NCBI GenBank assembly: GCA_041694835.1
Contig: JBGFRZ010000049.1
Location: forward strand, 1-30,341
DNA length: 30,341 nt
DNA from: Ignavibacteria bacterium
Lineage (GTDB): Bacteria > Elusimicrobiota > Endomicrobiia > PHAN01
Reading direction: 5' to 3'
The translations under genes and the position numbers were made by a program. Shown one piece after another: positions 3,930-30,341 of this stretch (within the stretch, counting starts at the first letter, position 1; each line of letters begins with the position of its first letter). The notes under the pieces were generated by a model. The model worked only from the letters and a program-made list of their open reading frames with translations. It was not told the DNA's origin and did not search any database.

Positions 3930-4274
3930 CCCCGTTAGAAATCCAATACCAAAGGCATTGGCGTTCCGATAGGTGAGATTATTGAAAAAGTTCTTCTACC
4001 ACACAAGACGCAAAAAAATGTGTAAGAAATTTTTTGCAACAAAGCACAAGTTTTGTAGTTGCAGACCTTGGTCTGCACAAGTGCACAAGGCACTGTAAAT
4101 CCCCCTGCTTCGCTTCCCCCTTTACAAAAGGGGGATAGAGGGGGATTTTCCGTGATTTCCAACTTTCGTGCTTTCGTGGTTCAAATCTTTTTTCATCTGC
4201 GTTTATCTGCGTCCAAAAATAAAAAAGGTGAGGTTTTTCAGTGGTCTCATAGGTCGGGATTATTTCTAACGGGG
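3930..4274. mobile_element. MITE-like element with TIR CCCCGTTAGAAAT / ATTTCTAACGGGG
   Basis: Perfect 13-bp terminal inverted repeats, flanked by TAAA (3926-3929) and TAAG (4275-4278). The non-coding interior is made of palindromic modules. Confidence 0.75.
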
Positions 4275-11965: not shown

Positions 11966-12124
11966 AAATCCCCTGCGCGGAGTTTACCCCGCACAGTTAT
12001 TGTGCGGGGCTTCCCACCAAATCCCCTTTTATTCCCCCTTTGAAAAAGGGCACCACTCTACTCATTCCCCCTTTAATAAAGGGGGGGGATTTAGGGGGAA
12101 TAAAAGGGGAATTAAGAGGGATTT
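11966..12124. repeat. Composite palindromic (REP-like) cluster, sister of 25413-25710
   Basis: CCCCGCACAGTTATTGTGCGGGG hairpin plus CCCCCTTT...AAAGGGGG hairpins. About 58 bp recurs inverted near 25650-25709. Confidence 0.75.
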
Positions 12125-16311: not shown

Positions 16312-16388
16312 AGGTGATTAGGATATTAAGAAATCAGGTTACCATGGAAACCCCCTAATCACCCAATCGCTTAATCGCTTAATCGCCC
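16312..16388. repeat. Inverted octamer array ((A)GCGATT / AATCGCT type), copy 1
   Basis: Degenerate left arm AGGTGATT..., right arm TAATCACC CAATCGCT TAATCGCT TAATCGCC. Confidence 0.7.
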
Positions 16389-16858: not shown

Positions 16859-16935
16859 CCCCTCTAACAAGAGGGGTGTCCCCGATTTATCGGGGACGGG
16901 GTGTGTCCCCTCTATTAAGAGGGGTAGGGGTGTGT
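16859..16935. repeat. REP-like hairpin cluster (CCCCTCT-N4-AGAGGGG ... GGGGTGTGT)
   Basis: Two CCCCTCT/AGAGGGG hairpins plus the GTCCCCGATTTATCGGGGAC palindrome. Confidence 0.8.
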
Positions 16936-16967: not shown

Positions 16968-17050
16968 ATGATTAAGCAATCAGCGATTAGGTTTTTACAC
17001 TCAATCGCTTAATCGCTTAGTCGCCTAATCGCTCAATCATCGCCCAATCA
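16968..17050. repeat. Inverted octamer array, copy 2
   Basis: GATTAAGCAATCAGCGATTAGG...CAATCGCT TAATCGCT TAGTCGCC TAATCGCT CAATC. Confidence 0.75.
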
Positions 17051-18677: not shown

Positions 18678-18741
18678 CCCCTTTTATTATAGGGGATTAA
18701 GGGTTATGTCCCCTCTAAAAAGAGGGGATTAAGGGGTGTGT
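18678..18741. repeat. REP-like hairpins immediately upstream of the DUF559 gene
   Basis: CCCCTCTAAAAAGAGGGG-ATTAA-GGGGTGTGT (18710-18741) ends 2 nt before the ATG. A degenerate copy lies at 18678-18703. Confidence 0.8.
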
Positions 18742-18743
18742 AA

Positions 18744-19121
18744 ATGACCAAAATCTATTACAACCCAAAACTAAAAGAACTTGCTCGTCAATTGCGCAAC
18801 CAAAGCACACGAACTGAAATAAAATTATGGAAATGTCTAAAAGGTAAAAAGTTTTATGGATATGACTTTCACAGGCAAAAGCCAATTGACAATTACATAG
18901 TTGATTTTTTTTGTCCCGAACTAAAATTGGCGATTGAATTAGATGGATACACGCACGGATTTGAAAAAGTTTTTGAAAAGGACAACATCAAAATGCAAAA
19001 ATTATCTGAACTAGGAATAATGGTTTTGAGATTTGTCGATGATGATGTAACAAAAAATATAGATGGTGTGTTGAAGTGTATAGAGGAATATATTCGTAAA
19101 CACACCCCCGGCCCCTCTTAA
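18744..19121 (+). CDS. DUF559 / Vsr-like (very short patch) endonuclease domain protein
   Basis: ARQLRNQST.TE.KLW..L..., FHRQKPIDNYIVDFFC..LKLAIELDG.TH, LGIMVLRF. AT-rich relative to the flanking che genes. Confidence 0.92.
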   Translation: MTKIYYNPKLKELARQLRNQSTRTEIKLWKCLKGKKFYGYDFHRQKPIDNYIVDFFCPELKLAIELDGYTHGFEKVFEKDNIKMQKLSELGIMVLRFVDDDVTKNIDGVLKCIEEYIRKHTPGPS

Positions 19122-19306
19122 TAGAGGGGAAGTGACAAAGAGTTGTCTCCCCTCTTAATAGAGGGAGGTGACAAAGAGTTGTGTCCCCTCTTAATAGAGG
19201 GGAAGTGACAGAGGATTGTGGCACCTCTTAATAGAGGGGCGGTGACAAAGAGTTGTGTCCCATCTAACAAGAGGGGTGTCCCTGATTTATCGGGGACGGG
19301 GTGTGT
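19100..19306. repeat. Tandem 36-37 bp hairpin array (5 units) bounded by ACACACCCC / GGGGTGTGT
   Basis: Units start at 19112, 19149, 19185, 19222 and 19259. Consensus CCCCTCTTAATAGAGGGG-rrGTGACAAAGAGTTGTGT. Confidence 0.9.
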
Positions 19307-19327: not shown

Positions 19328-19390
19328 ATTAGGCGATTAAGCAATCAGCGATTAGTTTTTTACACCCAATCGCTTAATCGCTCAATCGCC
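19328..19390. repeat. Inverted octamer array, copy 3
   Basis: AGGCGATT AAGCAATC AGCGATT AG...CAATCGCT TAATCGCT CAATCGCC. Confidence 0.75.
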
Positions 19391-19408
19391 CGCGCGGTTT
19401 TTTTACTA

Positions 19409-20336: not shown

Positions 20337-20506
20337 ACACACCCCCGGCCCCTCTTAATAGAGGGGAGGTGACAAAGGATTGTGTCCCCTCTTGATAGGG
20401 GGAAGTGACAAAGAGTCATGTCCCCTCTTAATAGAGGGGAGGTGACAAAGAGTTGTGGCCCCTCTAACAAGAGGGGTGCTCCGATGAACATCGGAGCGGG
20501 GTGTGT
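20337..20506. repeat. Tandem hairpin array (4 units), same family as 19100-19306
   Basis: Units start at 20349, 20386, 20422 and 20459. The terminal palindrome is the variant GCTCCGATGAACATCGGAGC. Confidence 0.9.
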
Positions 20507-22076: not shown

Positions 22077-22188
22077 TCGGCGATTAAGCAATCAGCAATT
22101 AAGCGATTGGGCAATTGAGTGTAAAAACCTAATCGCTGATTGCTTAATTGCTTAATCGCTTAATTAATCGCTCAATCGCTTAATCGCC
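22077..22188. repeat. Inverted octamer array, copy 4 (longest)
   Basis: GGCGATT AAGCAATC AGCAATT AAGCGATT GGGCAATT...AATCGCT GATTGCTT AATTGCTT AATCGCTT...AATCGCC. Confidence 0.8.
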
Positions 22189-23866: not shown

Positions 23867-24000
23867 ACACACCCCCGGCCCCTCTTAATAGAGGGGAAGT
23901 GACAAAGAGTCATGTTCCCTCTTAATAGAGGGGCGGTGACAAAGAGTTGTGTCCCATCTAACAAGAGGGGTGTCCCTGATTTATCGGGGACGGGGTGTGT
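23867..24000. repeat. Tandem hairpin array (3 units), same family
   Basis: ACACACCCCCGG-CCCCTCTTAATAGAGGGG ... GTCCCTGATTTATCGGGGACGGGGTGTGT. Confidence 0.9.
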
Positions 24001-24020: not shown

Positions 24021-24100
24021 AATTAGGCGATTAAGCAATCAGCGATTAGTTTTTTACACCCAATCGCTTAATCGCCTAATCACCTAATTACTCAATCGCT
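24021..24100. repeat. Inverted octamer array, copy 5
   Basis: Identical to copy 3 up to 24075, then CTAATCAC CTAATTAC TCAATCGC, ending just before the cheC RBS. Confidence 0.75.
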
Positions 24101-24112
24101 TATAGGAGCGCT

Positions 24113-25234: not shown

Positions 25235-25317
25235 TGGCGATTAAGCAATCAGCAATTAAGCGATTAGGCAATCAGCAATTAGGTTTTTTCACTCAATCGC
25301 TAACTCGCTCAATCGCT
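25235..25317. repeat. Inverted octamer array, copy 6
   Basis: GGCGATT AAGCAATC AGCAATT AAGCGATT AGGCAATC...CAATCGCT AACTCGCT CAATCGCT. Confidence 0.75.
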
Positions 25318-25412
25318 CCCGAATAATATCGTGTAATTCGTGCTAAAAAGAACAAAACACTAATGCTCTGTGACATAAGTCTTTGATAGTGCCACTCACA
25401 AGTGTCGGTAAT

Positions 25413-25710
25413 AAATCCCCCTCAGTCCCCCTTTGTTAAAGGGGGAAGAAACAAGAGAAACCCCCTTTGGAAAATGGGGAAGTAATGTAGGGAGAAAATC
25501 CCCCTGTATCCCACTTTAATAAAAGGGGAAAAAATTGAGGAAAAGTGTCCCTCTTAATTCCCTTTTGAAAAGGGCACCACTTTTTTTATTCCCCTTTTGC
25601 AAAGGGCCACACTCTTCTCATTCCCCCTTTTGTAAAGGGGGGAAGGGGGGATTTTGTGGGAAGCCCCGCACAATAACTGTGCGGGGTAAACTCCGCTCAA
25701 GGGGGATTTA
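25413..25710. repeat. Composite CCCCCTTT/AAAGGGGG hairpin cluster
   Basis: At least six C-tract/G-tract hairpins plus GAAGCCCCGCACAATAACTGTGCGGGGTAAA. Confidence 0.8.
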
Positions 25711-28084: not shown

Positions 28085-30341
28085 ATGACCAAAGAACAAA
28101 AATTTTATAAGGCATTACAGGATGTTTTCATCGGCGCCAAGATTGAGGGCGAAGGCGGTTTTGTTAATTTGATGAAGATAAAATCAAATTACTACCGCAA
28201 GATTGAGGACATTCTCAAAAAAGATATTGAAGCGGCGATAGAAAACTACCCTACATTCAGGGATGAACTTTTTGACAAGCTCTATTCATTTTTCAGCCGA
28301 TACTTTACGGAAAGCGGATCAATCTATTTCAACCAAACGCCTTTTCACAACAACATCTACGAAAAGGTTTATACCGATGAAAAGGATGTCATTCTTTTTT
28401 GGAAAACGCAGATGCTTTACTATGTCAAAACCGACCGGATTTTCAGAAGTTTGCCTGTCGAGTTTGAAAATTCCCATTCCATGAAGGGGTGGCAGGAATT
28501 CCCCTCTTTAGAGGGGCAGGGGTGTTTTCCTGACGGGGTAGTTAAGTTTTACTTTGACGCTTCAAAAATAGAAAGCAAAAAAGCCAACGAAAAACGCTCA
28601 CTCATTTTTGAATTAAACAAGGTCCGCGAGGACGGGACGATTGTTTTGGGCGTTCAATACTCCGAGAGGGGCGCGAAAACAAAACAAGACGAGATACTAA
28701 AAGCCATAAAACGGAAAGGCATTGTCATTACCGAAGAACAGCTTGAGCGTGCTTTTAAGGTTTTTGAAAAGCAGAGCGAAGTTGATTTCTTTATTAACAA
28801 AAACGCCAAAGCATTTTTGCAAGAGCAGTTTAAGCTCTGGAGTTATCAGTATTTCTGGGAAGGGGCGAAAGAGTGGGGCGCGGACAGAGTCAATCAACTG
28901 CAAATCCTGAAAAGTATCGCTTTCAAAATCATAGACTTTATCTCGCAGTTTGAAGATGAGCTGGTAAAAATCTGGAACAAGCCGAAGTTTGTCAAAAACT
29001 CAAACTATGTGATTACGCTAGACAGAATCGCGGACCCCGAAGGAAAGCCTTCGGCTTCCAGCGGGGCAGGTAAAAAACTCGTTGAGAAAATCAAAAAGCA
29101 CAAAAACTTTTCGGAACAATTAAAAGAGTGGCAAGAATTGGGCATAAATAAAGACAATCCCAAAGCACCGATTGATACCAAGTATTTTAAGGACTTGGAG
29201 CTCGAAATTTTGAGCCAGTTTGAGGACTTGGATAAATCATTAGACGGATGGCTGATAAAAAGCGAAAACTATCAGGCGTTAAACACAATTCTGCCGAAAT
29301 TCAAAGAAAAAGTGCAGACGATTTATATTGATCCGCCGTTTAATACTGGGAAGGATTTTGATTACATAGACAAATTTCAGGATGCAAGTTGGTTGAGTTT
29401 AATGAAGGATAGAACAGATCTAAATAAAAATATTCTTAATAAAGAAGGCGTATTATTACTACATCTTGATGAAAAATCTAATTATTATGGCAAACTTCTT
29501 TTAAATAATATTTTTGATGAATACATAAATGAAATAGTATGGCATTACTTTATGGGAGGAAAGACGCAAAAAGGATTTTCGAAAAAACATGACTCAATAT
29601 TAGCTTATGCGAAAAATGATTTATTCTATTTTAATGATAATGTATTAGAATCGGTTCGATATTTATTTGATAAGCCGTCTTTGGGTAGTCATAAAGATAT
29701 TGAAGAATTAGGATGTAGTAAGTGCGGCCAAGGTCAAAAAATCTGGATGAGTAAGGTAAAAAAAGATGATGTATGGGATATTTCGGGAGTTTTTAATATG
29801 GCAAATGAATTTTATGATTTTGACACACAGAAACCAGAGTCTTTGTTAAGAAACCTCATAGAGTCGTTTTCTAGAGAAAGTGATTTTATTCTTGATAATT
29901 TCGCAGGGCTTGGCACTACTATGGCTGTTGCACATAAGCTGAGAAGAAAATGGGTTGGTATTGAAATGGGTAATCACATAAATGAGTTTTATATAGACGA
30001 TAAGAAAATCAAGATTGGTATAAAAGGAAGAATGAAGCAAGTATTAGCAGGGAAAGGAAAAAATGAACCAACGGGGATTTCAAAAGATGTTAATTGGCAG
30101 GGCGGTGGGTTTTTCAAGTATTACGAGCTTGAGCAATACGAGGAAGCGCTGGCGAATTGCAAATATGGCGACAGCGATTTGTTCAATTCGCCCTCAAAAA
30201 CTCCATATCAGGAATATGTCTTTATGAAAGACGAAAAAATGCTCAAGGCAGTAGAGATTGATTATGAAAAAGATAAGGTCAAAGTTGATTTAGCGAAACT
30301 TTACCCGAATCCCTCGGCTCCGCTCGGGACAAGCATAGACA
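28085..30341 (+). CDS. mod: Site-specific adenine DNA methyltransferase, type III Mod-like (beta class), 3'-partial; absent from the ORF track
   Basis: ATG 28085 (MTKEQKFYKAL...) stays in frame to the window end at the points checked. Motif IV IYIDPPFNTG (about 29321-29350) precedes TQKPE and motif I DNFAGLGTT (about 29894-29920). Confidence 0.88.
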   Translation, partial: MTKEQKFYKALQDVFIGAKIEGEGGFVNLMKIKSNYYRKIEDILKKDIEAAIENYPTFRDELFDKLYSFFSRYFTESGSIYFNQTPFHNNIYEKVYTDEKDVILFWKTQMLYYVKTDRIFRSLPVEFENSHSMKGWQEFPSLEGQGCFPDGVVKFYFDASKIESKKANEKRSLIFELNKVREDGTIVLGVQYSERGAKTKQDEILKAIKRKGIVITEEQLERAFKVFEKQSEVDFFINKNAKAFLQEQFKLWSYQYFWEGAKEWGADRVNQLQILKSIAFKIIDFISQFEDELVKIWNKPKFVKNSNYVITLDRIADPEGKPSASSGAGKKLVEKIKKHKNFSEQLKEWQELGINKDNPKAPIDTKYFKDLELEILSQFEDLDKSLDGWLIKSENYQALNTILPKFKEKVQTIYIDPPFNTGKDFDYIDKFQDASWLSLMKDRTDLNKNILNKEGVLLLHLDEKSNYYGKLLLNNIFDEYINEIVWHYFMGGKTQKGFSKKHDSILAYAKNDLFYFNDNVLESVRYLFDKPSLGSHKDIEELGCSKCGQGQKIWMSKVKKDDVWDISGVFNMANEFYDFDTQKPESLLRNLIESFSRESDFILDNFAGLGTTMAVAHKLRRKWVGIEMGNHINEFYIDDKKIKIGIKGRMKQVLAGKGKNEPTGISKDVNWQGGGFFKYYELEQYEEALANCKYGDSDLFNSPSKTPYQEYVFMKDEKMLKAVEIDYEKDKVKVDLAKLYPNPSAPLGTSID

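What the first reader, a model, noticed from the sequence alone, without database searches (positions are those of the whole stretch)
18678..19306. DUF559 nuclease gene bracketed by inverted REP-like hairpins that have spread through the operon: a RAYT-like arrangement with a non-HUH enzyme
Seen: hairpin CCCCTCTAAAAAGAGGGG followed by GGGGTGTGT ends 2 nt before the DUF559 ATG. The mirror motif ACACACCCC plus hairpin begins inside the last codons, and the stop TAA lies in the hairpin loop. The gene is AT-richer than the che genes it interrupts. The same repeat family occurs without the gene at 16859, 20337, 23867 and 28469. Established: a nuclease gene flanked by inverted REPs, with dispersed gene-free copies, is the layout of RAYT/REPIN systems, whose enzyme is an HUH tyrosine transposase. 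DUF559 is instead Vsr-like. Inference: DUF559 is either the enzyme that recognises, nicks or propagates these hairpins, or cargo mobilised between them. Either way it is a candidate selfish REP-nuclease module.
Basis: partly seen in the sequence, partly recalled or inferred. Interest (0 to 1): 0.85.

Follow-up and report, generated by a model that had tools for sequence, protein, structure and literature searches.

The report
Nuclease gene cassette with triplex-repeat ends
A small DNA-cutting enzyme gene wedged into a chemotaxis operon is bracketed by two inverted copies of a folded DNA repeat of a long-known but unexplained kind, and the same gene-plus-repeat unit recurs across many bacterial phyla, which makes this enzyme a candidate partner for those repeats.

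Summary
A 125-aa DUF559 gene (18744-19121) lies between hairpin+GGGGTGTGT, which ends 2 nt before the ATG, and ACACACCCC+hairpin, with the TAA stop in the loop. Gene-free copies lie at 16859, 20337, 23867 and 28469.

The repeat is more specific than "REP-like". It has the Y-arm / R-arm / G-T-tail layout of BoxC/PIT/"TM" class II intrastrand-triplex motifs, and the tail follows the triplex mirror rule across 47 of 80 arm variants.

The bracket, with tails facing the gene, recurs in 47 of 78 close homologs from about 12 phyla (shifted controls 5 of 291). It also recurs in 15 of 25 HMM-picked genes from this phylum.

In Flavobacterium the whole 447-bp repeat-gene-repeat unit sits at a gene junction that is 10 nt or less in 57 of 80 other species.

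The genome's one RAYT-like gene has its own, different repeat. The protein keeps the full EDxHD/Vsr-like active site.

Unproven: that DUF559 moves the repeats. Two relatives hold 34-44 repeats without any such cassette.

This scan has met the same pairing on other DNA (240 notes). My literature searches found no paper describing the pairing.

The parts
18678..18709 (+). Degenerate upstream triplex-motif unit. It has hairpin CCCCTTTTattaTAGGGG, then attaa, then the decayed tail GGGTTATGT.
   Evidence: (2 mismatches to the hairpin pattern)
18710..18741 (+). Left end of the cassette, TM(+). Order: Y-arm CCCCTCT, loop aaaa, R-arm AGAGGGG, spacer attaa, G/T tail GGGGTGTGT. The tail faces the gene and ends 2 nt before the ATG.
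   Evidence: In the DNA fold the tail stays unpaired (z -4.6).
18744..19121 (+). DUF559 (Vsr-like, EDxHD-type PD-(D/E)XK) nuclease gene, 125 aa. The last 6 codons (HTPGPS) are encoded by the right-hand repeat.
   Evidence: - Pfam PF04480, E 3.2e-30.
- PDB 3HRL 5.6e-16 and I-Bth0305I 3R3P 0.0064.
- AF2 model pLDDT 87.2; Foldseek 3hrl 1e-7, 3r3p 1.7e-4.
- Conserved E25, D54, D67, H71, D80.
- G+C 31.7%.
19100..19129 (-). Right end of the cassette, TM(-). It reads ACACACCCC, cgg, CCCCTCTtaatAGAGGGG, which is the reverse complement of the left end, so the tail again faces the gene. The TAA stop lies in the hairpin loop.
19100..19306 (.). Gene-free double-ended repeat element abutting the gene. It starts with ACACACCCC and holds 5 hairpins at 37-nt spacing. 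It ends with a second hairpin (tccctgatttatcgggga) and GGGGTGTGT.
   Evidence: (period 37, 4.5 copies, score 232)
16859..16935 (+). Gene-free copies between the hemerythrin and MCP genes. The first is hairpin, second hairpin, GGGGTGTGT. The second is hairpin, ta, GGGGTGTGT.
20337..20506 (.). Gene-free double-ended array between cheR and cheY. Ends are ACACACCCC and GGGGTGTGT, with 4 hairpins.
23867..24000 (.). Gene-free double-ended array between cheA-W and cheC (3 hairpins). It matches the 19100 array, including 15 nt of 3' flank.
28469..28527 (+). Copy of the same family (CCCCTCTttAGAGGGGcaGGGGTGT), read through in frame inside the N-terminal part of a DNA methylase ORF (28085-30340).

Best explanation
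The stretch 18710-19129 is a small selfish DNA cassette. It holds one Vsr-like (EDxHD-type) DUF559 nuclease gene. Two inverted copies of a class II purine-motif intrastrand-triplex repeat enclose the gene. Each copy has a pyrimidine arm, a purine arm and a G/T third-strand tail, and both tails point at the gene.

The cassette has been inserted between the MCP and cheR genes of a chemotaxis operon. Its gene-free relatives are single units and double-ended arrays. They populate other intergenic gaps of the operon and about 25-40 sites in the genome.

Shown here:
- The anatomy of the cassette.
- The triplex-rule covariation of arm and tail.
- The orientation-specific bracket in many phyla.
- Insertion of the whole repeat-gene-repeat unit at an otherwise tight gene junction in Flavobacterium.
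- Co-occurrence of the repeat family with the cognate gene clade.
- An intact catalytic motif.

Inferred, not shown: the nuclease recognises the folded or palindromic repeat ends, probably as a dimer, and nicks or cuts there. Host recombination or replication repair then copies or moves the cassette. In trans the same activity moves the gene-free repeats, as RAYT does for REPINs and a homing endonuclease does for its own gene.
For: (1) Anatomy.

(2) Triplex design.
- Of 296 gene-proximal hairpins with an asymmetric purine arm, 199 have a perfect antiparallel mirror-rule tail (G to G, A to A/T) within 40 nt.
- The direct-repeat control of equal degeneracy gives 55 of 296. Foreign arms give 25.6 of 296 expected.
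- The rule holds for 47 of 80 distinct arm types.
- The layout equals the class II motif defined in PMC4666352 (passages read).

(3) Conserved bracket.
- TM(+) upstream in 58 of 78 loci, TM(-) downstream in 61 of 78, both in 47 of 78.
- The opposite orientation occurs on both sides in 6 of 78. Shifted controls give 5 of 291.
- Inverted-repeat score of 12 or more: 40 of 79 against 7 of 296 controls.
- In an HMM-picked sample of the phylum both ends are present in 15 of 25, and the opposite orientation on both sides in 0 of 25.

(4) The unit moves as a whole. The Flavobacterium X|Y junction is 10 nt or less in 57 of 80 species. It holds a 447-bp TM-DUF559-TM unit in L028, L029 and L035.

(5) Co-occurrence. 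Hairpin+GGGGTGTG is present at 3 or more copies only in G000, G001, G018 and G022. These are exactly the four of 41 relatives whose DUF559 is at least 57% identical to the window's.

(6) Not RAYT-driven.

(7) Active-site residues E25, D54, D67, H71 and D80 are conserved. They align to the catalytic residues of I-Bth0305I and Vsr (PMC3239194 passages).

(8) The gene has foreign composition (31.7% G+C) and a cross-phylum tree. The window groups with L004 and is nested among Nitrospirota rows.

(9) The three arrays in the operon are near-identical, which points to recent local copying.
Against: - No biochemical or population evidence links the protein to the repeats.
- No empty MCP-cheR site was found, and public reads were uninformative.
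- No target-site duplication is visible at the Flavobacterium junction.
- The most abundant triplex-repeat family of this genome has R-arm AAAGGGGG: 50 pattern matches and 64 of the 114 motifs found. It has no cognate DUF559 gene here.
- Relatives G031 (34 copies, 99% complete, no PF04480 match) and G012 (44 copies, only two non-cassette DUF559 domains) carry that family without a cassette.
- E. coli K-12 ycjD has a triplex-like repeat only downstream.
- 8 of the 25 phylum-sample genes, and the distant homologs L009, L011 and L017, have no bracket.
- Repeat class follows the protein tree only modestly: 38 changes against 45.5 in shuffles.
Confidence: 0.5

Rival explanations
1. Homing-type selfish gene. 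DUF559 is a free-standing homing endonuclease. It cuts a palindromic site made by two head-to-head repeats (GGGGTGTGT|ACACACCCC) and is copied into the break by recombination. The triplex repeats themselves arise and spread by some other, host-driven process and are only its landing pads.
For: - Sequence and fold similarity to the I-Bth0305I homing endonuclease catalytic domain. That enzyme reads a pseudopalindromic site as a dimer (PMC3239194 abstract and passages).
- The two tails that abut the gene form a perfect palindrome when joined.
- No gene-free tails-inward pair is left in this genome: 0 found, against 7 tails-outward pairs.
- Repeats thrive in genomes without the gene.
Against: - In Flavobacterium both repeats arrived together with the gene at a junction that holds no repeat in 57 of 80 other species.
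- The protein is only the catalytic domain. It has no NUMOD/HTH-type DNA-binding extension.
- No uninterrupted target allele was seen anywhere.
Confidence: 0.2
2. Passive cargo. The repeat-bounded cassette is moved in trans by an unrelated enzyme, such as an IS transposase, an integrase, a RAYT or host recombination at hairpins. DUF559 has a cellular job of its own, such as Vsr-like mismatch nicking, repair or defence.
For: - Earlier notes of this scan describe DUF559 cassettes carried inside IS-ended elements (not tested here).
- Repeats persist without the gene.
- Holder et al. found no mobility genes near E. coli TMECO copies (PMC4666352 passages).
Against: - The cargo between inward-facing repeats is specifically DUF559. 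Shifted windows around other genes in the same loci give 5 of 291.
- The pairing holds across about 12 phyla and across repeat variants.
- G018, with 44 copies, has no Y1 transposase match.
- The genome's RAYT has its own repeat.
- No methyltransferase partner lies next to the gene.
Confidence: 0.17
3. Invertible switch. The flanking inverted repeats serve site-specific or homologous inversion of the 0.4-kb segment, turning the gene on and off.
For: 'DUF559 domain-containing protein' is listed as enriched (odds ratio 14.3) among predicted programmed-inversion targets in PMC9881135. I saw only that table row.
Against: - There is no invertase gene nearby.
- The same enrichment is expected from any gene whose ends overlap inverted repeats.
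- Orientation relative to the flanks is fixed: tails inward in 47 of 78, outward in 6 of 78.
- It does not explain the gene-free dispersed copies or the triplex-rule tail.
Confidence: 0.05
4. Coincidence or regulatory hairpins. The hairpins are ordinary terminators or RNA elements common in intergenic DNA, and the gene merely sits between two of them.
For: Hairpins lie in several intergenic gaps of the operon.
Against: - None is followed by a T-run. The terminator scan flags only 19384-19399.
- No Rfam family reaches its gathering score.
- The bracket is conserved across phyla and is orientation-specific.
- Copies are also read through in frame inside ORFs.
Confidence: 0.03

Closest known systems
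BoxC / PIT elements / TM (TMECO) intrastrand-triplex repeats. Source: Holder et al. 2015, NAR, PMC4666352. I read the abstract, section 15 and search passages. Its references to Bergler and to Hoyne/Maher were seen only as cited there.
   Same: - Same three-block class II purine-motif layout: pyrimidine arm, purine arm, then a G/T(A) third-strand block antiparallel to the purine arm.
- Short loops, tens of copies per genome, mostly intergenic.
- Relatives of this gene in Alphaproteobacteria are flanked by units that fit the published TMECO consensus type (GGGAGAGGG ... GGGTGAGGG).
   Different: - The arms are shorter and differ in sequence: 7 triplets, CCCCTCT/AGAGGGG/GGGGTGT.
- The units are often built into 37-nt tandem arrays or double-ended elements.
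- The paper reports no associated mobility gene. Here the repeats form the inverted ends of a nuclease gene cassette.
- Triplex folding of this variant is untested.
REP/REPIN elements with their RAYT (REP-associated tyrosine transposase, Y1/HUH, PF01797). The description is recalled from Nunvar 2010, Bertels & Rainey 2011 and Ton-Hoang 2012, which were not read here.
   Same: - One small nuclease-type gene flanked by inverted copies of a hairpin repeat.
- That repeat is also dispersed gene-free in tens of copies, partly as inverted doublets.
- Different gene clades go with different repeat variants.
   Different: - The enzyme is a Vsr-like PD-(D/E)XK/EDxHD nuclease, not an HUH tyrosine transposase.
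- The repeats carry a triplex-type third block.
- The cassette shows cross-phylum transfer and insertion polymorphism rather than a domesticated single-copy pattern.
- This genome also has a true RAYT-like gene with its own, different repeat.
EDxHD homing endonucleases, prototype I-Bth0305I (PDB 3R3P). Source: Taylor et al. 2011, PMC3239194; abstract and passages read.
   Same: - Homologous Vsr-like catalytic domain (phmmer 0.0064, Foldseek 1.7e-4, TM 0.80 over the target).
- All five active-site positions are conserved.
- A selfish gene whose flanks join into a palindrome, as expected for a dimeric cutter.
   Different: - No N-terminal NUMOD/HTH DNA-binding region.
- Not inside an intron or intein.
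- It carries its own structured inverted repeats.
- Gene-free repeat copies exist.
- No cognate uninterrupted target is known.
NGO0050-type DUF559 proteins (PDB 3HRL) and E. coli YcjD. YcjD-like proteins were predicted to be PD-(D/E)XK nucleases in PMC1189080 (passages read).
   Same: Same Pfam family and fold. E. coli ycjD also has triplex-type repeats downstream.
   Different: These proteins have no assigned function or repeat partner in the papers I could search. K-12 ycjD lacks the upstream repeat.

Membership tests
DUF559 (PF04480), Vsr-like PD-(D/E)XK nucleases | Match to the Pfam model above its gathering score | tested here: met
   104.7 bits against a cut-off of 20.6; E 3.2e-30; residues 9-117 cover 2-108 of 109 model positions.
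DUF559 (PF04480), Vsr-like PD-(D/E)XK nucleases | Vsr-like alpha/beta nuclease fold | tested here: met
   AF2 model pLDDT 87.2, pTM 0.80. Foldseek: 3hrl E 1.1e-7, 3r3p E 1.7e-4, 1vsr E 0.05.
EDxHD / Vsr catalytic motif | Conserved Glu, Asp, x, His, Asp active-site residues. In Vsr these are E25, D51, H64, H69, D97. In I-Bth0305I they are E170, D196, N208, H213, D222. | tested here: met
   E25, D54 and H71 are invariant; D67 and D80 are at least 90% conserved in 39 sequences. Positions were mapped through the 3R3P alignment and the residues named in PMC3239194.
EDxHD homing endonucleases (I-Bth0305I type) | N-terminal sequence-specific DNA-binding region (NUMOD/HTH) | tested here: not met
   The protein is 125 aa. 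Pfam finds only DUF559, plus a sub-threshold REase match.
EDxHD homing endonucleases (I-Bth0305I type) | The gene interrupts its own recognition site, and an uninterrupted cognate allele exists | tested here: inconclusive
   No gene-free tails-inward repeat pair in this genome. No empty MCP-cheR allele found. The Flavobacterium empty sites hold no repeat.
BoxC / PIT / TM class II intrastrand-triplex motifs | Order is pyrimidine block, purine block, reverse-Hoogsteen block. Stems are 6-15 nt, loops 1-6 nt. Triads are G.G:C and A/T.A:T (criteria quoted from PMC4666352). | tested here: met
   - 18710-18741 reads CCCCTCT / aaaa / AGAGGGG / attaa / GGGGTGT: 7 of 7 triads.
- Genome-wide there are 114 such motifs against 1 in the reversed-sequence control.
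- Mirror-rule covariation: 199 of 296 against 55 and 25.6.
BoxC / PIT / TM class II intrastrand-triplex motifs | Match to the E. coli TMECO consensus CCCTCNCCC N3-6 GGGNGAGGG N3 GGGNGAGGG | tested here: not met
   The window's units have different and shorter arms. TMECO-type units flank more distant DUF559 genes.
BoxC / PIT / TM class II intrastrand-triplex motifs | Formation of a triplex by the isolated strand (CD, NMR, melting) | not testable with these tools
   The nearest-neighbour fold only shows the hairpin with the tail left free.
RAYT / REPIN systems | The flanked gene encodes a Y1 (HUH) transposase, PF01797 | tested here: not met
   The flanked gene is DUF559. The only PF01797 gene (C41:8758-9468) has its own repeat, AATTGGGGACGGTCCTCAATT.
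RAYT / REPIN systems | Gene flanked by inverted copies of a hairpin repeat that is also dispersed gene-free, partly as inverted doublets | tested here: met
   25 hairpin+tail units in the genome and 7 double-ended elements.
TIR transposons / MITEs | Target-site duplication and a cognate DDE-type transposase | tested here: inconclusive
   No duplication is evident at the Flavobacterium filled site against the empty sites, but these come from different species. There is no transposase inside the cassette.

The most novel reading that the evidence does not exclude
DUF559 proteins are the long-missing partner enzymes of the BoxC/PIT/TM intrastrand-triplex repeats. On this reading they are a new class of structure-reading, Vsr-like nucleases. 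They recognise a folded triplex or hairpin end and use it to move their own minimal cassette (repeat-gene-repeat, about 0.42 kb). In trans they also move the gene-free repeats. This would be a third kind of repeat-plus-enzyme partnership in bacteria, beside RAYT/REPIN and IS/MITE, and the first natural enzyme system built around an intrastrand DNA triplex.
Probability: 0.35. Interest if true: 0.9.

Novelty: new variant of a known kind. Interest (0 to 1): 0.72.

Why it matters
BoxC/PIT/TM repeats have been known in E. coli, cyanobacteria and hundreds of other genomes since the 1990s. The one systematic study I could read found no function for them. It states that no transposase or integrase was ever found beside them (PMC4666352).

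DUF559 is a very large family with solved structures and no assigned role. A conserved, orientation-specific physical pairing of the two gives a concrete experiment for both puzzles: does the nuclease bind and cut the folded repeat, and does it mobilise it?

The pairing would also explain several things. It would account for the odd proline/glycine-rich C-terminal tails of many annotated DUF559 proteins, which are translated repeat. It would explain why these genes turn up as 'programmed inversion targets'. It would explain why such repeats sit in frame inside other genes. If the enzyme reads DNA shape rather than sequence, it may also be useful as a structure-specific tool.

Tried and rejected
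- Empty MCP-cheR junction. CheR was not found with this query in G001, G002, G018, G022 or G004. The metagenome scan gave only 31-36% identical CheR. No empty site for this locus.
- G001 against G002 synteny around the closest cassette (L004). G002 has other genes in that variable gap, so it is not a clean empty site.
- Public reads. One run held a small share (0.14) of the stretch. Laying its contigs showed only conserved MCP pieces and repeat fragments. No joint across the cassette, and nothing can be concluded.
- RAYT as driver: rejected.
- Terminator or known RNA family: rejected.
- Direct-repeat and Watson-Crick models for the tail score worse than the mirror rule. A first, cruder covariation test was weak because one arm type dominated and arms carried flanking bases. 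It was redone on trimmed arms and a wider sample.
- 'Stop codon in the hairpin loop' and 'tail 2 nt before ATG' as conserved design. The first is rare (2 of 92). The second is only a tendency (median 15 nt, many at 2-20).
- E. coli K-12 ycjD as a full cassette: only the downstream side carries triplex-type repeats.
- Literature. These searches returned no paper linking the nuclease family to the repeats: 'DUF559'+'repeat', 'DUF559', 'intrastrand triplex'+'endonuclease', 'ycjD', 'TMECO', 'Vsr-like'+'inverted repeats'+'selfish'.
- Limits of the literature check. Subscription papers are outside the library. Supplements are closed, including those of PMC4666352 and PMC9881135, which may list the gene neighbours of the repeats.
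- Integron attC cassettes were considered but not tested. The neighbours are operon genes, not a cassette array.
Full report
**1. The observation**

- The hairpin CCCCTCTaaaaAGAGGGG is at 18710-18727.
- After attaa comes GGGGTGTGT at 18733-18741.
- Two bases later comes the ATG at 18744.
- At the other end, ACACACCCC (19100-19108) lies in the last codons.
- After cgg comes the hairpin CCCCTCTtaatAGAGGGG (19112-19129), whose loop holds the TAA stop (19119-19121).

The ORF is DUF559 (PF04480, E 3.2e-30). Its core is 31.7% G+C against 42-47.5% for its neighbours. Those neighbours are a hemerythrin gene, an MCP gene, cheR, cheY, cheB, cheA-W, cheC and cheD, as identified.

The hairpin pattern occurs at 16 sites in the window where 0.31 strand-matches are expected.

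Gene-free copies lie at four places:
- 16859-16935.
- 20337-20506.
- 23867-24000.
- About 28469-28527. This copy is read through in frame inside a DNA-methylase ORF.

The array ends in a second hairpin plus GGGGTGTGT at 19298-19306. The three arrays in the operon are near-identical, including some flank.

**2. What the repeat is**

Each unit has three blocks:
- A pyrimidine arm (CCCCTCT).
- A purine arm (AGAGGGG).
- After 2-5 nt, or after a second small hairpin, a G/T block (GGGGTGT).

The G/T block is the mirror image of the purine arm with A written as T. This is the layout of a class II purine-motif intrastrand triplex. Holder et al. define it for BoxC/PIT/'TM' repeats (PMC4666352; abstract, section 15 and passages read). 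The lead came from earlier notes of this scan, and I tested it independently.

I examined 296 gene-proximal hairpins with an asymmetric purine arm. They came from 121 DUF559 loci in about a dozen phyla.
- 199 have a perfect mirror-rule tail within 40 nt.
- A direct-repeat model of equal degeneracy gives 55.
- Arms borrowed from other loci give 25.6 expected.
- The rule holds for 47 of 80 distinct arm types.

Examples:
- GGGGGAGG goes with GGTGGGGG.
- GGGAAGGGG goes with GGGGATGGG.
- GGGAGAAGG goes with GGATGAGGG.
- AAAAGGGG goes with GGGGTATTT.

A general finder gives 114 such motifs in this 1.9-Mb genome and 1 in the reversed-sequence control. In a single-strand DNA fold the hairpin forms and the tail stays free. 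Whether a triplex really forms cannot be tested here.

**3. Is the bracket a property of the gene family?**

Yes, for a large part of it. A scan with the window's protein returned 80 loci at 52-68% identity. They come from Nitrospirota, Bacteroidota, Planctomycetota, Thermodesulfobacteriota, Cloacimonadota, Ignavibacteriota and other phyla.

78 of the 80 loci had enough flank; two were dropped at contig edges. Results:

| Arrangement | Loci |
|---|---|
| Triplex motif on the gene strand upstream | 58 of 78 |
| Triplex motif on the opposite strand downstream | 61 of 78 |
| Both, tails facing the gene | 47 of 78 |
| Reverse arrangement on both sides | 6 of 78 |
| Both, tails facing the gene, in windows shifted by 650-1000 nt | 5 of 291 |

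A plain inverted-repeat score of 12 or more was reached by 40 of 79 loci against 7 of 296 controls.

I also took a sample picked by the Pfam model rather than by likeness to this protein. PF04480 matches 54 of 151 genomes of the phylum. The tool returned 30 loci, and I dropped the five already examined. Of the remaining 25, 15 have both ends, 17 have at least one, and none has the reverse arrangement on both sides. The eight without a bracket include the four weakest matches.

More distant DUF559 genes (L009, L011, L017) and DUF559 domains inside large proteins (L227, L229) lack the bracket.

**4. Is it a mobile unit?**

Three Flavobacterium genomes (L028, L029, L035) share one insertion. It is a 447-bp repeat-gene-repeat unit between a 307-aa gene and the next gene.

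I looked at 80 other genomes that carry the upstream gene.
- In 57 the two genes overlap or lie 10 nt or less apart.
- In 21 they are separated by 11-1229 nt of unrelated sequence.
- In 2 the downstream gene was not found.
- None of the 80 has DUF559 there.

So both repeats arrived with the gene. No target-site duplication is evident, but the filled and empty sites come from different species.

Among the window's own relatives, the closest cassette (G001, 75% identity) sits in a different context, and its sister genome has other genes at that spot.

On a tree of 116 proteins the window's gene pairs with G001's (support 95). The pair is nested among Nitrospirota rows. Phylum labels change 27 times against 70 in shuffles. 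Descent is therefore mostly within phyla, with clear transfers between them.

**5. Does the repeat track the gene?**

Among 41 relatives the unit 'hairpin+GGGGTGTG' occurs as follows:

| Genome | Copies |
|---|---|
| G000 | 25 |
| G018 | 44 |
| G001 | 3 |
| G022 | 3 |
| G002 | 1 |
| G007 | 1 |
| the other 35 | 0 |

The four genomes with three or more copies are exactly the four whose DUF559 is at least 57% identical to the window's.

The repeat does not track a RAYT. This genome's single Y1-transposase gene (C41:8758-9468) is flanked by its own inverted repeat, AATTGGGGACGGTCCTCAATT, which has four further copies. G018 has no Y1 match.

**6. Evidence that cuts the other way**

The commonest triplex family of this genome is a double-sided palindrome: AAATCCCCC...CCCCCTTT-loop-AAAGGGGG...GGGGGATTT. 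It gives 50 pattern matches, four of them sites in this window. It has no cognate DUF559 gene here, since one search finds only one DUF559 gene in the genome.

Cognate cassettes for this family do exist in G001 (L013), G115 and G042. But two relatives carry the family without one:
- G031 has 34 copies, is 99% complete and has no PF04480 match.
- G012 has 44 copies and only two non-cassette DUF559 domains.

So the repeats can persist, and perhaps spread, without a resident cassette. That fits non-autonomous relics after loss of the gene. It equally fits a model in which the gene only exploits the repeats.

Three further points:
- E. coli K-12 ycjD has triplex-type repeats only downstream.
- Repeat class follows the protein tree only modestly: 38 changes against 45.5 in shuffles, minimum 43.
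- No empty MCP-cheR site or informative read data could be found.

**7. The protein**

PDB sequence search finds 3HRL (a DUF559 structural-genomics entry, 5.6e-16). It also finds the catalytic domain of the homing endonuclease I-Bth0305I (3R3P, 0.0064).

An AlphaFold model built from a 39-sequence alignment has pLDDT 87.2. It matches 3hrl at 1e-7, 3r3p at 1.7e-4 (TM 0.80 over the target) and Vsr at 0.05.

Conserved residues:
- Invariant: R18, E25, W29, Q45, D54, F55, E65, H71.
- At least 90% conserved: D67, G68, D80, R96, F97.

Through the 3R3P alignment, E25, D54, D67, H71 and D80 fall on the five EDxHD positions named by Taylor et al. (PMC3239194; abstract and passages). The enzyme therefore looks active.

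It has no extra DNA-binding domain. The C-terminal HTPGPS is translated repeat. Many homologs end in HTPNPS, PTPNPS or similar, and 44 of 92 ORFs read right through the downstream repeat.

**8. Mechanism**

Shown:
- A compact cassette with triplex-type inverted ends, tails inward.
- Gene-free elements with the same ends, tails outward. There are 7 in this genome and no gene-free tails-inward pair.
- Insertion of the cassette as a whole.

Inferred: the nuclease recognises the folded or palindromic ends and nicks there, and host repair copies or moves the unit. I put this at about 0.5. The rivals are:
- A homing-type gene that uses pre-existing repeats as targets: 0.2.
- Passive cargo of another mobility system: 0.17.
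- An inversion switch: 0.05. 'DUF559 domain-containing protein' is listed as enriched among predicted inversion targets in PMC9881135; I saw only the table row.
- Chance or regulatory hairpins: 0.03.

**9. Novelty**

Six literature searches found no paper that links DUF559 or YcjD-like nucleases to BoxC/PIT/TM or REP-like repeats. Holder et al. state that they never found transposase or integrase remnants near TMECO sites.

The library lacks most subscription papers, and supplements were closed. The claim is therefore 'not found', not 'not published'.

This scan itself has noted the same pairing many times on other DNA: 240 notes in at least 218 genomes. The present window is one more clean, intergenic instance. 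It adds three things: the operon-wide arrays, a genome with two triplex families and only one cassette, and a resident RAYT as an internal control.

I rate it a new variant of a known kind. It is a repeat-plus-nuclease selfish module with a new enzyme family and a new, triplex-type end structure.

Noticed in passing
window 4098-4147, 12031-12101, 25414-25479, 25587-25653; genome-wide: A second and more abundant triplex-repeat family. It is a double-sided palindrome, AAATCCCCC..CCCCCTTT-loop-AAAGGGGG..GGGGGATTT. Pattern matches: 50 in G000, 36 in G001, 44 in G012, 34 in G031, none in the other 37 relatives. It has no cognate DUF559 gene in this genome. Cognate cassettes exist in G001, G115 and G042.
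   Followed up: yes
G000 contig C41:8709-9458 (locus L002 1420-2170): A RAYT-like Y1 transposase gene (236 aa, PF01797 E 1.3e-12). It is flanked by inverted AATTGGGGACGGTCCTCAATT, with four further copies on C27, C81, C86 and C89. This is a separate, classical REP/RAYT-type system in the same genome.
   Followed up: partly
window 28469-28527, inside ORF 28085-30340: A copy of the CCCCTCT/AGAGGGG/GGGGTGT repeat is read through in frame (..MKGWQEFPSLEGQGCFPDG..) in the N-terminal region of a DNA methylase (N6_N4_Mtase) gene. I did not check whether homologs lack this insert.
   Followed up: partly
window 16365-16386, 17003-17050, 19330-19390, 22139-22187, 24062-24102, 25237-25318: Runs of 8-base words (AATCGCTT, CAATCGCT, TTAATCGC and similar) fill the same intergenic gaps as the triplex arrays.
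   Followed up: no
G000 contigs C7:9387 and 12503, C27:949, C31:14690, C62:11459, C67:36544: The hairpin+tail unit is embedded in a longer mosaic, with two other small hairpins (..gcgggcgaattgctattcgcc.. and ..gggatagcaatccc..). This resembles the BIME-like modular build of enterobacterial repeats.
   Followed up: no
L016/L228 (G001:C21:88222-88533); L046; L007/L255 (G010:C6): DUF559 units lie inside very long open frames (3018 aa, 634 aa, 957 aa) with a triplex repeat at the downstream side. These are possible in-frame cassettes inside other genes, as earlier notes of the scan describe.
   Followed up: no
L221 5040-5840 (E. coli K-12, ycjD-fabI gap): Downstream of ycjD its last ~45 nt are duplicated (..ggagacggtgctggagaatattc..), and each copy is followed by a triplex-like unit. 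A full BoxC/TMECO-type unit lies about 180 nt further on. There is no such unit upstream.
   Followed up: partly
window 25560-25639: A 32-nt tandem repeat (2.5 copies) built on another hairpin, CCCTTTTGAAAAGGG, next to the second triplex family.
   Followed up: no
L141-L220, Flavobacterium X|Y junction: The same tight gene junction has been hit by other inserts in other species. One is an ~80-nt AT-rich palindromic element (L142, L143, L144, L164; doubled in L153). Another is a 630-675-nt insert with an ORF (L150, L151, L200). The junction looks like a hot spot.
   Followed up: no
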